A program made the translations under genes and the position numbers. The notes beneath the pieces are model-generated. The model was not told the origin of the DNA and did not search any database. It worked only from the letters and a program-made list of their open reading frames with translations. A DNA stretch of 64,000 bases from Styela clava (lineage: Eukaryota), in NCBI RefSeq assembly GCF_964204865.1, contig NC_135264.1, forward strand, positions 4,464,001 through 4,528,000, read 5' to 3'. The first letter of the stretch is position 1; every line of letters begins with the position of its first letter. This document shows positions 6,830-59,279 of this stretch, in pieces.

Positions 6830-8135
6830 TGAAAATATTGCAACAGCAGAAAAGCCATTCACAGAAGGCGAATTTGTAAAAAAGTGCTTATTACAGACTG
6901 CAAGTATACTCTGTCCAGTAAAGTCAGTTTAGCAATGTCATCCTTTCTGCCAACGGCAGAGCGTATTTCTGATCTGTCAAGTGACATTTATGATCAACTG
7001 TGTGAGAAAGCCAAATGTTTCAGTGCATACTCAGTTGCTCTCGATGAGACCATAGACATCACCGACACTACCCAGCTTGCAATTTATGTCCGTGTTGTTA
7101 ATGACAATTTTGAAGTGATGGAGAGGTTGCTCAGAGTAATTCCAATGCATGGCCAGTCCACCGCTCAGCAGATGTTTTGCCAGTTGTGTGAGGTCAATAA
7201 TAATGCCGGTTTGACATGGCGGATGTTTGCTGGGATAACAACCAATGGAGCACCATCAATTACAGAAAAAAATGGACTGGTGGCAAAACTGGGAGAGGAG
7301 GGTGTAGAGGAGGCCATTGCTCTCCACTGCATTATCCATCAGCAGTCCATTTGCAGCAAATGCCTGAAGTTTGACAATGGGATGTCTGTCGTTGTGAAAT
7401 GCATCAACAAATCAGATCCAGGGGCTTAAAACACCGAAGATTCCGTGCTTTTTTGCAGGATATTGAGTCAGAATATGGGGATGTACTCTACTTTTCTTGT
7501 AGATATCACATACAAGGTTAATGTCCGTAGTATGTCCACCAAGATGGCGAAAACTGGAACGTAGTATGTGTATCAGGTTAGGGTTAGGCCATAATTTTAT
7601 GTCAATTTACCTTATTTTAGTTCTAATACGAGTTTAGGGACTAGCCGAATGACTTTCATACTATTTGTACCTGAAATTATGGCCTAACCCTAACCAGGTA
7701 CACATGCTACGTTCCGGTGTCTGCCATCTTGGTGCACATACTACGGGAGTACCGTTACAAGGCCCTGAGCATGTGGGGGAATTCTCCACAAAACTAGTGT
7801 TATGGAAAGCCCAATATGCCCCAATATGCCCCTTCTGTGCTTGAAATGCAACTCATTGACTTACAGTGCAACTCTAAACTCAAAGCGAAATTCTGGGAGG
7901 TGAGTGGAAAAGTCGACAAGCTTGGGCAATTTTCGAGAGAATTGTTCTCCGGCTTTCCAGAATCTTCAAGCGGACTATGTGCCTTTTGGAAGCGCATACT
8001 TGCGTTTAAAGCTTTTCTCAATTTTAACACTTAACTAACTATTGAACATCTTCAATCCGTACTGTGGGTCTCAATTTCCTTCCCCCTCAAACCAAATATG
8101 TGGCTCTGCTATGCGACAGAAGGCGCTGCCAAGTA
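6830..8135 (+). pseudogene. hAT-Charlie/GTF2IRD2-like transposase pseudogene
   Basis: ORF 6884-7429 has YSVALDETIDITDTTQLAIYVR (first catalytic Asp), ITTNGAPSI (decayed TDGA) and LHCIIHQQ (CxxH). C-terminal fragment MQLIDLQCN at 7816-8034. Frameshifts and a MITE insertion. Confidence 0.85.
7517..7753. mobile_element. Merlin-like MITE with long inverted arms containing TTAGGG/CCCTAA, inserted in the transposase remnant
   Basis: Arms ccgtagtatgtccaccaagatggcg...caggttagggttaggccataattt and aaattatggcctaaccctaaccagg...catactacgggagtacc. Degenerate 8-bp flanks catacaag / gttacaag. Homologous to 28276-28468. Confidence 0.7.
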
Positions 8136-29022: not shown

Positions 29023-29363
29023 TCGCGGGCGCGGCTCAACGGGCTAAGCGTTAGGAATACGCTCGCCACCGCACCTCTAATTACTGTGCATGGGTTCGCA
29101 GGTTCGAATCCCATGCAGGGATGGTTATGTGCGAGAGGATTGCTGGATTCCTCGCCGTCGTTGGGTGGTTCACGTAACCGTTGGTCGGTTACGGCTTCCT
29201 CCACCACCAAGTCCATGCTTCCGAAAACAAACAATACAGTAAAACTAATCCCATACCCGACTTGGAATGGTAACCGGACAAGAGGCCGTGGTTCGCCATA
29301 TGGATAAGCCGTCTTGTCGGCTTTCCTCTCCCCCGGGATAAATATGTAAATCCTGTCCTATCC
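29023..29363 (+). mobile_element. tRNA-derived SINE
   Basis: A-box-like ggctcaacggg (~29033), B box ggttcgaatcc (29101-29111), tail aaatcctgtcctatcc. Homologous copies on the minus strand at 37.2 kb and 53.7-54.4 kb. Confidence 0.85.
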
Positions 29364-54430: not shown

Positions 54431-54723
54431 ATATACCTGTTTGTAACCTGATCCGAAATCAACCATGAACCACTCATGATCGCTTTGTAGTTCATGTTAT
54501 TATGGGAATAAATTGTATACAAACTTCAAAGTTGAAACTTGTGAAGCAGTATTCTTTTTAGAAGAAACACGATTTGTTTGCTTGTTTGCGTGCCGTATTA
54601 AAAAATGGACGCTTTAATCTGTACAATGCAAATTGCAATTAACTATTGATTTTTTAACAGGCTGAGTATTATATAATTTGGCATAGTCAACATGCATACG
54701 TGATATTTAATTAAGATTAAAAT

Positions 54724-57700
54724 ATGGAGCCACGTACCTTGGTCATAACATTAACAATCGCATTATTCAAATTAGGATATTCATCATCACAATATACTTC
54801 TCCCCCGTTCCACAGGACGTTTTCTGATGCTTGCATTTCAGCGGGCATAAAAGATGAAAATGCTTGTCCGCGAATCGCTGGCAAAAGTCAGTGGTCAAAG
54901 GAAAAACGAACTTCTGAAAGTGACACGAGGTTTAAACCAACTAACCCTAGGAAATGTTTTTCAAAAGTATTAGTGTCAACCCAAAAGTGTAACGCAAAAC
55001 CAGAATGTGTAATGACAGCTTACAAATACTCACTTCCAAACAGAGGTCGTTCAGCTGGAAAAAGCAATCCTTCTCATTGCATAAAAGACTGGTCTATCGA
55101 AAGTACATGTAAGGCAAATGGACCAGGTGGAAAAAATACCAGAACTACATATTTTAATTGTTTTAGAAAAGGAGCGAGGAATTTTTGTGGAGTCAAATTT
55201 GAGAATTGTAAACCGGTTCCTTGTTTTACTTGGACTGGTTATAAGAGGCAATGTTTCATGGAATGTAAGACGCCAAAATTCACTGGGATTGCGATGCATT
55301 TTGTAAGAAATTGTAAAGAATGTGGCGGGGATATAACAAATAATACTAATTGTTCTGGGGGAGAGGAAGCAGCAACAAGGTTAGGGCGATGCATTGTGAG
55401 ATCAAAGGCAAGAGCTAGAGCGCCAGATTGTGTTTTAGACACGACAACTGCAATTGTAACCACGGCTCAACCGGAAACAACAAGGGGCATCACTACCGCT
55501 AAGATAACAAAATTAACAACCACCACAATTCAAACTAGTCCGCATACCACATATGGGAGGACCATCACAACACCAGAAACTTTCAGAACATCTACTGCTA
55601 TAAAGAAATTGGATGCGACAACAAGTCATACCACAAAAGCAAAAATAACAACTGGACCAAATAACCACATAAAAACAAAGCCCACCAAAACCGTTCTTAG
55701 CACAACAAAACAGGACAAAACTGAACCGACTACAACAACTTCAAAATCCACAACTACTAAACAAACCACAGGTTTTACAAAATCAACTGCGACAATTACC
55801 ACTACCTCCACAACTATAGTACCAGACTATATATCAGTGAGCTCTACAAAGTCAATTGTAAGAGCTACAACAACAAATCCTCGAACTACATCTTTAAATT
55901 TTAACCAGGAGGAATCCACAGCTATTGTAGCTGCAATACCTGGTGGTCAATCAGGTCACGATGATAATCCTTTCAACTTGGTAACCATAGCTGGCGGTGC
56001 TGGTGCTGGCATCATATTTATTGTGTTGATAGCAATCATAATATTTCTGTTGATGAAAAGAGACACTAAAACGCCGCCCGGACCGGCTTATAGCTCATCT
56101 TCGTTGTATAGATCACGAAGTGGTAGAAATCCCGTTGTTGATAGTTCTTCATTTCGCATTGCCACTTGGATTAGAGAAAGGCCAGCATTACCGAACAGAA
56201 GCCGAACGTCATCTGATTCGGTGAGTTATTAGATAGGCATGATAAATATTTCAGTTTTAGGTAATTTTTTCATGTAAGAATAGTAATTTAAATAAGTAAA
56301 CAATTATATAATACTTTATGTTTCACTTACTTTGCTTGGCAATTACTGTGATTGTTTGAAAATTATATCCGCAAACAGAATTTTGTTAAATTTATATGCA
56401 GCCTAATGCCTTTGTTAGTACATATTGTAACATTCGTTCGTTCAATTTTATACGAAGAAGCAAACGAATAACAACTTCACTAGGACTCAAGACTATTCAA
56501 TAATGTATATAAGTGAAGGCGGTCAATACTAATGGCAATGCAATTCACGAAGTACTAGAAATGCCAAATGATTAAATCGTGACGTAGAAAATCATTATAT
56601 ATACAATAGCGAATAGGTACATCTGAGCCTACATTTATTGTATTGTAAAATATAAGGTTTTATTGGTGCGTGATGTTAGTTACAATGTCACAATGCTATT
56701 TATTTAATTAAATTTCTAAAATCTTAGCCGTGTGAGGCGACCATGGACCAAGATCAATGCTTATTGAAAATGCATATGCTAGAATTCGTTCTTTGTACTC
56801 TGTCAGAACTTGCCAAATACGTTCTCCCGAATTAAAATAGATTATTTCGTCGGCTTTACAAAATAGGAAACACAAAATCGATTAGTAAACGTCAATGTTG
56901 TTAGAATCGACCCTATTCTAGTTTCCAAATGGTTTCTGCGGGATGGTGTACATTTGAATTCACTTTAATTTCTCACTTTAGGGGGTGTCTGACGCTGAAT
57001 ATTGGAAAATTGGAGAATCATCAGAAGAAAAAATAGCAACACCCAATAAATCACAAACATCTATAGTCCCAGATATTGTGAAAATTATTCAAGTCGAAGG
57101 GGAAGGTACTATCATTTATTTCTAAATATGCAAGAATTTTAGTTTCAACATGACGACTTACAAAAACAGACAAACTGATATTTAAATGATATTAGAACTG
57201 TTTAGTCACATGTAATAAATTCAGAATTTAAAAAATATGAATTTCATTTTGCAGTGTACAAAATGAAAAAAAAAAATAACTACTACAAAGTATCTATCAC
57301 TGCTTTAATATATATTAGCATGGCGATTCTGGAAAAATTTTTAATGGTAAATATCAGAATTGTTTTGGCAACTATTATTTCAGAAGCATGATCTAAGTTA
57401 ATTTTGAAAGTTGCACTATATATTTAAATATTTTCCTAATAAATTCTCATATTTTCAGAGCACATTTACGATGAAGTATCCTTTGGTATGGTGCAAGACG
57501 ACATGCAAAAGTTTGTACCGATTACTCGAGACAGTCCATTTAAAAATAGTCGAACATCAGCCAAAAGCACTCATAGCGAACCGGCGGAAACGTCAACATC
57601 TCGTGAACAGGAATGGCCAAGGAGTGAAAGCGCGGTATATGCAGTTGTACGCAAAACGCGTAAGAGAAATGCGAATTCTACGAAGAAAAGTCCCTCCGAA

Positions 57701-57892
57701 GCTGGAGATGGAGACTTTAGGCGAAGAGTCGCCTCAGAACATTCCGCCAGTATTACTAGATTAAATGGACGACACCTTCGAGAAGGGGTTTTGCAAATTG
57801 AATTTGATGAGAAAGAAGGCCTGCGATGTAGATTATCAAACTCTAATGTTTATATGAATTTTGAAGAGACGGAACCTCCTCCGGTTATATAG
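54724..57892 (+). CDS. Uncharacterised type I membrane receptor (~684 aa): signal peptide, 18-Cys domain, Thr-rich stalk, TM helix, Tyr-motif tail
   Basis: Exons 54724-56220 (tcg|gtgagt), 56982-57105 (tttag|...gaag|gtact) and 57459-57892 (tttcag|), phases 0 and 1, joining into the 57488-57892 ORF frame. TM IAGGAGAGIIFIVLIAIIIFLLM followed by KR. Confidence 0.85.
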
Positions 57893-59279
57893 CGAAATAG
57901 TTTCTCTCACCGTAAAGCGACGTATTCACCTACGGGCGTACTCGACAGCGTATGATTTGATTAATTAATTTGATTATGATTCATGAATAAAATAGTTCTA
58001 CAATTGTTTTAGTTGTGTAAATATATATCAGTTGTTTGCGTAGTTGTTGTTCTTTACCTAATAAAATTAAATTATTTTTTCAAGATTTAACTTTTGGTGG
58101 ATGCCTTAAAATGATACAAAGACTATATATAAAAGATAGCAGAATAAATGTACAGTTAAGATTGAGATTGGGAGAGTTGATGAAAAATATAATTATGTAA
58201 ATAATTAGATTAATTAGTAGTTGGCCTGATCGGTACAAGTGCTGTTTTGGTTTATACGCTATCATCCTACCGACTGATGCCAAATTAACTGATAAAGCAA
58301 AGACGCGATTACGCAAGTCTCAATCATGCAATACAGATGGTACTTTACATTCACACTTTGCGCAAAAGAAATTTGGAAATTACGGTAAACAGTGTACGTG
58401 AACGTACACCAACTTCTACTTACCTGAACCAACGCTTTTATACCGATAAAATACATTTTAAACGTATGAAATATGATTGCGCAACATTCATCGAGGTTAT
58501 TAAACAATATTGACACAGTCGATCATGTCATTCTGCGAGATAAATTGAATGATTATTACAAAAACGAATAGAACTGTACAATATTAACTAAACGACCACA
58601 ATTACTTACAGTCTGTAGCCTACCTTCAGTTATTTTTTGATCATGACTTGATTCTATGTTCACATCACTACTCAAAGTTTCTACGGCGTCTTAGTCAAGG
58701 AGAATGTCACTGAAACCTTAGTTCAGAGGTCATTAAAGATAATTTGTGACCTTTTCACCATTATGTGACTTTTTGTAGTGACCCAAAATCGCAATTGATA
58801 TTAACCAAACATTCTTCTACCAATGAATATTTATGTGGGTAGTTTATGCCATTTTCTGTACGTTTATATCGTTCGTAAAATACCTGCAATAAACACTCTT
58901 TCTACTCTTTTTACTTTCTGAAAGTTATTTCGACTTCAAACTATCGCATAAACTAAGATTAGTATTAAGAATTATCGAAACATTTTGTAGTGAAATCGTC
59001 AACTGCGGTTGTTGCGCATTCTCCACAGAATGTCTTCATTTTCTTCTGCAAAGTTTCTTTAATACGCATGCGATGCATTGCAGATGAAGCACGATCAGAT
59101 TTGTTCCTCGGTCCGACTTAGCAATGATTAGAAATGTAATAACTCCCCACTTTGAAAATTCCTGTCTAAGCCCCGGCAAGATATTCGGGAGTGTTACAAA
59201 TGTCTAATAAAAACTTTGCGCATTTTCTCCTATAAAGTCAGCTTGTTAACGCTACATCTGCAAAAAAGTACCCTGAACT

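What the first reader, a model, noticed from the sequence alone, without database searches (positions are those of the whole stretch)
54724..57892. Orphan immunoreceptor-like gene: whole ectodomain and TM in one exon, signalling tail on two further exons
Seen: signal peptide, ~200-aa basic 18-Cys domain, ~160-aa Thr-rich stalk, TM, then a ~240-aa low-complexity tail with spaced tyrosine motifs EYWKI, IYDEV, VYAVV and VYMNF plus a terminal PPPV. The ORF track shows only disconnected pieces. Known: pYxN binds Grb2 SH2, pYDEV binds Nck SH2, and VYAxV resembles ITIM-type/SHP sites (not a strict ITIM). Inference: a non-catalytic tyrosine-phosphorylated receptor of a family I do not recognise, a candidate for adhesion, phagocytosis or allorecognition. 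Retention of the first coding intron would end the protein at 56232 without these motifs.
Basis: partly seen in the sequence, partly recalled or inferred. Interest (0 to 1): 0.75.

Follow-up and report, generated by a model that had tools for sequence, protein, structure and literature searches.

The report
Sea-squirt receptor with eroded thrombospondin repeats
A single-copy, spliced sea-squirt gene encodes a membrane protein whose outer part is likely built from worn-down thrombospondin repeats on a mucin-like stalk, and it likely works as an adhesion receptor that signals to the actin skeleton through one conserved tyrosine site, rather than as a variable immune or self-recognition receptor.

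The parts
54724..56220 (+). Coding exon 1: signal peptide, whole ectodomain, TM and first ~53 aa of tail (aa 1-499)
   Evidence: P0002 and P0005 are genomic open frames that also run from signal peptide through TM and then leave the alignment near this donor
54724..54792 (+). Likely signal peptide (aa 1-23)
   Evidence: hydrophobic N-terminus in 4 of 4 relatives; cleavage site inferred
54793..55080 (+). Module D1 (aa 24-119; C37, 48, 78, 89, 95, 119): three predicted strands, fold unresolved, possibly a very degenerate TSR with an N-terminal cap
   Evidence: strands; no TSR match for this part
55081..55224 (+). Module D2 (aa 120-167): likely degenerate short TSR lacking the second Cys
   Evidence: profile alignments; no structural TSR match
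55225..55431 (+). Module D3 (aa 168-236): likely TSR with CxxxC...[RK]xC...C...C...C and an extra C200
55444..55968 (+). Thr-rich mucin-like stalk (aa 241-415), variable in length and sequence
   Evidence: 9 of 67 aligned residues identical to P0004; pN/pS 0.78
55990..56061 (+). Transmembrane helix (aa ~423-446) with an N-terminal small-xxx-small (GxxxG) motif
56110..56193 (+). Conserved juxtamembrane block (aa 463-490), ending in an RxxPxxP class-I SH3-type motif (aa 484-490)
   Evidence: aa 455-492: 26, 29 and 28 of 38 identical in the three relatives; RxxPxxP in 3 of 4
56221..56981 (+). Intron 1 (761 nt, GT..AG, phase 0)
56982..57105 (+). Coding exon 2; carries EYWKI (Y506 at 57000-57002)
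   Evidence: aa 499-512 identical at 12 of 14 in P0004
57106..57458 (+). Intron 2 (353 nt, GT..AG, phase 1)
57459..57892 (+). Coding exon 3 to stop codon
57467..57478 (+). YDEV (Y544): YDxV Nck-type site, YDDV in P0004
   Evidence: motif class from PMC12203975 passages
57638..57649 (+). YAVV (Y601): not conserved (HAAV in P0004)
57719..57838 (+). Conserved C-terminal block (aa 628-667): RxRxxS site, then a predicted-hairpin-like stretch; function unexplained
   Evidence: aa 626-684: 33 of 57 identical to P0004; window identity up to 10 of 11; hairpin is my reading of the sequence, not a computed fold
57851..57862 (+). YMNF (Y672): Tyr and +3 hydrophobic kept in P0004 (YIDL), +2 Asn lost
57893..58111 (+). 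3' UTR covered by transcript contigs; AATAAA at 57986 and 58060

Best explanation
This is a spliced, single-copy gene for a 684-aa single-pass membrane protein that likely acts as an adhesion or matrix receptor: two to three likely degenerate thrombospondin type-1 repeats sit on a Thr-rich stalk, and the enzyme-free tail likely recruits an Nck-type adaptor to a conserved YD[E/D]V site to drive actin assembly. Shown: gene structure, splicing, single copy, conservation pattern. Predicted: D3 is a TSR (about 0.8), D2 a shortened TSR (about 0.6), D1 open (about 0.35), with a C167-C200 bond tying D2 to D3. Inferred and untested: the basic ectodomain (+12 to +22 in four relatives) binds a polyanionic ligand such as a sulfated glycan; binding clusters the receptor via the GxxxG helix; a Src-family kinase docks by its SH3 on RxxPxxP and phosphorylates Y544 and Y506; SH2 adaptors then link to actin; the two conserved non-tyrosine blocks bind further, unknown partners.
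Confidence: 0.52

Rival explanations
1. It is a haemocyte immunoreceptor for aggregation or phagocytosis, the counterpart of the Halocynthia roretzi two-ITAM membrane glycoprotein (called A74, name recalled), signalling through tyrosine kinases and PI3K.
For: Such a non-catalytic tyrosine-motif glycoprotein exists in a related ascidian (PMC5465252 passage). Four of six tail tyrosines are YxxPhi. Nck-actin coupling would also serve engulfment, so this overlaps with the best explanation.
Against: No ITAM, ITIM, ITSM or YxxM in the Styela tail; only a loose hemITAM-like match in P0004. No named Halocynthia protein came up, though a member hidden inside a 50% cluster cannot be excluded. The primary paper is not held.
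Confidence: 0.2
2. It is an endocytic or scavenger-type receptor: the basic head captures polyanionic cargo and the conserved YxxPhi motifs (Y506, Y544, Y672) are sorting signals rather than SH2 sites.
For: Three YxxPhi motifs are kept in P0004 while the SH2-specific +2 Asn is not. Basic ectodomain in 4 of 4. That YxxPhi binds adaptin complexes is recalled knowledge.
Against: The acidic context and YD[E/D]V are kept, which fits a kinase/SH2 site; long conserved non-tyrosine blocks suggest more than sorting.
Confidence: 0.13
3. The ectodomain is a new disulfide-rich fold and the TSR likeness is convergent Cys spacing.
For: Pfam and PDB sequence searches are blank; no WxxW; structural scores are low and D1-D2 do not match TSRs.
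Against: Cys-fixed shuffles are exceeded, the D3 model matches two different TSR structures, and the C167/C200 prediction held. This rival remains live for D1 alone.
Confidence: 0.12
4. It is a polymorphic allorecognition receptor like Botryllus FcoR, with intron retention switching off the signalling tail.
For: AVYAVV fits the FcoR core-2 motif [A/D]VYxxV, and FcoR genes do use intron retention (PMC12582321 section 13); 46 of 20000 shuffles give this motif. One run (X5) differs at 14 of 734 ectodomain bases.
Against: Single copy; Cys-region variants are 11 synonymous to 6 non-synonymous, pN/pS 0.15 (from cut tables); the motif is single, not paired, and lost in P0004; FcoR are Ig-superfamily multigene receptors (abstract).
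Confidence: 0.03

Closest known systems
THSD7A (type-1A TSR domains d1/d2; bioRxiv 10.1101/2023.05.03.539264, parts 1-2 of 5 read; PDB 8oxr)
   Same: Type I membrane protein with tandem non-canonical TSRs; best structural match to D3; a short helix before strand C in both (model, text); adhesion role in podocytes.
   Different: THSD7A has 21 predicted TSRs, a WxxxxW motif and a 26-aa tail; this protein has at most three modules, no such motif, a mucin stalk and a 239-aa tail. A separate multi-exon THSD7-like gene lies at G000:C8 near 0.2 Mb (one exon, E 0.0011 to 8oxr).
Nephrin-type YDxV/Nck adhesion receptors (PMC12203975, passages read)
   Same: Enzyme-free single-pass receptor with a YDxV site in a disordered tail; this is the model for how it likely works.
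   Different: Nephrin has Ig-like domains and three YDxV motifs; here one YDxV and a TSR-like head. No homology is claimed.
Halocynthia roretzi two-ITAM haemocyte glycoprotein (A74; seen only through the review PMC5465252, passage)
   Same: Ascidian non-catalytic membrane glycoprotein with tyrosine motifs.
   Different: Two ITAMs are reported there, none here; sequences could not be compared.
Botryllus fester co-receptors, FcoR (PMC12582321, abstract and section 13 read)
   Same: Tunicate receptors with tyrosine motifs; one core-2-like AVYAVV.
   Different: Ig and sushi ectodomains, multigene, polymorphic, with ITIM/hemITAM; this gene is single-copy, under apparent purifying selection, without ITIM.
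Styela alternating long/short TSR arrays (G000:C18 near 5.90 Mb, G000:C10 near 19.05 Mb; unnamed)
   Same: A short+long TSR pair profile aligns end to end to aa 122-225; the C18 array also lies in one long open frame and the C10 gene has Thr-rich linkers.
   Different: They keep WxxW and all six Cys; no TM or tyrosine tail was seen in the stretches read; similarity is only at profile level.

Membership tests
Thrombospondin type-1 repeat (TSR) | Six conserved Cys with CxxxC and [RK]xC (module D3) | tested here: met
   C177, 181, 197, 210, 223, 236 in 4 of 4 relatives; C5-C6 spacing is longer than usual
Thrombospondin type-1 repeat (TSR) | WxxW (or WxxxxW) motif on strand A | tested here: not met
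   0 WxxW in 4 of 4 ectodomains; only 2-3 isolated Trp each; feature
Thrombospondin type-1 repeat (TSR) | Pfam TSP1-clan score above cut-off | tested here: not met
   no TSP1 family at E <= 10
Thrombospondin type-1 repeat (TSR) | Elongated three-stranded fold | tested here: inconclusive
Thrombospondin type-1 repeat (TSR) | C1-C5, C2-C6, C3-C4 disulfide connectivity | not testable with these tools
   no coordinates returned; indirect support from C167/C200 co-loss
THSD7 orthologues | About 21 alternating TSRs and a 26-aa tail | tested here: not met
   separate THSD7-like gene
ITAM/ITIM immunoreceptors | ITAM, ITIM or ITSM consensus in the tail | tested here: not met
   none in either full tail (patterns recalled, ITIM as)
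Botryllus FcoR | Ig-superfamily ectodomain, multigene and polymorphic | tested here: not met
Halocynthia A74 | Sequence homology to A74 | not testable with these tools
   paper and sequence not held
YDxV/Nck-coupled receptors (works like) | Conserved YDxV in a cytoplasmic tail | tested here: met
   YDEV and YDDV in 2 of 2 full tails
YDxV/Nck-coupled receptors (works like) | Phosphorylation and Nck SH2 binding | not testable with these tools
   needs experiment

The most novel reading that the evidence does not exclude
This is the founding member of an undescribed ascidian receptor family whose D1-D2 head has been rebuilt from TSRs into a new fold, and whose two strongly conserved non-tyrosine tail blocks (aa 463-490 and 628-667) are a new signalling module; it is the styelid blood-cell receptor that triggers aggregation or engulfment through Src and Nck without ITAMs, which would make the long-unresolved ascidian A74-type pathway testable.
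Probability: 0.12. Interest if true: 0.65.

Novelty: new variant of a known kind. Interest (0 to 1): 0.4.

Why it matters
It turns an 'uncharacterized' protein into a testable receptor and shows how a TSR can erode below Pfam detection while keeping its disulfide logic. TSR head + mucin stalk + long YDxV tail is an architecture I found in no described family (searches found no paper on it). If the mechanism holds, ascidians built a nephrin-like Src-Nck-actin adhesion receptor from different parts. The most conserved parts of the protein are two tail blocks of unknown function, which are the best handle for finding new partners. It is a narrowly distributed single gene, so the reach is modest.

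Tried and rejected
Pfam on the window pieces and on all four proteins gave no domain hit; only sub-threshold TM matches. PDB sequence searches blank or chance. First fold from 2 sequences had pLDDT 38 and its Foldseek search was meaningless. Word-indexed homologue searches found only self and P0002, or nothing. Metagenome scans: 169 and 150 pattern matches, none confirmed. Single-unit profiles from the C18 array did not beat shuffles (85-277 of 500); only the pair profile did. Ten long TSR-bearing open frames elsewhere in the genome were read as possible paralogues; none has this architecture. Homodimer job on the ectodomain: no answer, score 0.00, alignment not used; no evidence either way. 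Retained intron 1: no RNA-like contig covers intron 1 in the six runs, but contigs drop rare forms, so this is no evidence of absence; one low-depth X5 contig enters intron 2. No listed run is on record as RNA and no tissue is given, so haemocyte expression is untested. Nck gene not located. A recalled resemblance of the juxtamembrane block to human THSD1 could not be tested, as no tool gave that sequence. Earlier scan notes: nothing near this place, by sequence, or by words. Supplementary tables of Styela expression papers were not searched and may list this gene. The species behind P0002, P0004 and P0005 are not given; that they are ascidians is an inference.

Full report
Observation. The three-exon model is correct. 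Joining 54724-56220, 56982-57105 and 57459-57892 gives 684 aa with 18 Cys in aa 37-236, a stalk with 58 Thr in 160 residues, one TM helix and a tail of about 239 aa with the four tyrosine motifs named. It equals NCBI XP_039257462.2, 'uncharacterized protein LOC120334074' of Styela clava, at every residue. Intron 1 is removed in contigs of 5 of the 6 RNA-like runs laid (two studies) and intron 2 in 6 of 6 (three studies); the DNA-like run X9 reads through both. So the gene is real, transcribed and already predicted, but unnamed.

Relatives and copy number. HMMER over 1.84 billion representatives returns four proteins: itself, P0002 (50% over the Cys region), P0004 (38%) and P0005 (36%), all three unnamed. 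P0004 is full length; P0002 and P0005 are genomic open frames that run from signal peptide through TM and leave the alignment near the first donor, so the one-exon ectodomain appears shared. In the own genome the ectodomain and the C-terminal block hit only this locus, the TM region adds two unrelated weak hits at E 0.14 and 0.19, and P0004 hits only this locus. These searches score only best candidates, so very distant paralogues could be missed.

The tail. Against P0004, Y506 (EYWK), Y544 (YDEV to YDDV) and Y672 are kept; Y601 becomes His and the Asn that makes Y672 a Grb2-type site is lost. No ITAM, ITIM, ITSM or YxxM is present. YD[ED][VP] is rare by chance (106 and 233 of 20000 shuffles), YxN is common (4533 of 20000). 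YDxV sites of nephrin bind Nck after Src-family phosphorylation and drive N-WASP/Arp2/3 actin assembly (PMC12203975 passages). The best-conserved parts are not the tyrosines: aa 455-492 are 26-29 of 38 identical in all three relatives and aa 626-684 are 33 of 57 identical in P0004, against 77 of 203 for the ectodomain. The first block ends in RxxPxxP (3 of 4), the second starts with RxRxxS; both motifs are common by chance, and neither block is explained.

Polymorphism. From the union of 39 listed coding variants (tables cut: 33 and 19 rows not shown), the Cys region has 11 silent and 6 replacement changes (pN/pS 0.15), the tail 5 and 3 (0.18), the stalk 4 and 9 (0.78). This fits purifying selection on the head, not allorecognition-type diversity.

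Mechanism. Most likely an adhesion or matrix receptor. The stalk holds a basic TSR-like head (+22, +16, +20, +12) away from the membrane; it would bind a polyanionic ligand, cluster through the GxxxG helix, be phosphorylated by a Src-family kinase and recruit an Nck-type adaptor to Y544 to build actin. Gene structure and conservation are shown, the TSR assignment is predicted, and ligand, kinase, adaptor and cell type are inferred. That TSRs bind sulfated glycans, that GxxxG favours helix pairing and that RxxPxxP is a class-I SH3 ligand are recalled knowledge. A haemocyte role like the two-ITAM glycoprotein of Halocynthia (PMC5465252 passage) is the main rival and is compatible with the same biochemistry; it could not be tested.

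Comparison and novelty. It is not THSD7 (21 repeats, 26-aa tail; a separate THSD7-like gene exists), not an FcoR and not an ITAM/ITIM receptor. Searches for the gene id, for Styela with thrombospondin and transmembrane, and for tunicate TSR receptors with Nck found no paper; one search listed 11 papers, none about such a protein by title or abstract start. Supplements were not searched. Verdict: a real, undescribed, narrowly distributed variant of the TSR-bearing single-pass adhesion receptors with an Nck-type tail; interest 0.4.

Noticed in passing
window:34646-39632 (+): Multi-exon septin gene upstream of the receptor, same strand; two exons hit Pfam Septin. Looks septin-7-like (recalled).
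   Followed up: partly
window:45524-47110 (+): 529-aa open frame with DUF4371 and hAT dimerisation domains: a hAT transposase. A transposase-like frame at 6833-7426 had no Pfam hit.
   Followed up: partly
window:53680-54430: Nested high-copy repeats just upstream of the gene, with very deep cover in the RNA-like runs and a second copy at 29105-29354 on the other strand.
   Followed up: no
window:54645-54662: A T-rich AG acceptor at 54660 lies 63 bases before the ATG and one X6 contig starts at 54662, though one X3 contig starts at 54600; an upstream non-coding exon or trans-splicing is possible.
   Followed up: no
L074:1859-4405 (G000:C18 near 5.90 Mb) and L081:757-1971 (G000:C10 near 19.05 Mb): Arrays of alternating long and short TSR units; the C18 one fills an 849-aa open frame with 85 Cys.
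   Followed up: partly
L065, L066, L067, L068, L069 (G000:C8 9.55-9.76 Mb), L070, L072: A family of long single-frame genes with an unrecognised Cys-rich N-terminal region followed by 2-4 TSRs, tandemly repeated on C8.
   Followed up: no
L071:4099-5742 and L073:4241-5737: Open frames with TSR, LDLa-like, long middle and EGF-like parts, resembling complement C6-C9-type MACPF proteins (recalled), largely in one frame.
   Followed up: no
L113:3792-4862 (-), just beyond the window's end: 357-aa open frame resembling a glutaminyl cyclase / M28 peptidase (recalled), next to a LINE-like frame.
   Followed up: no
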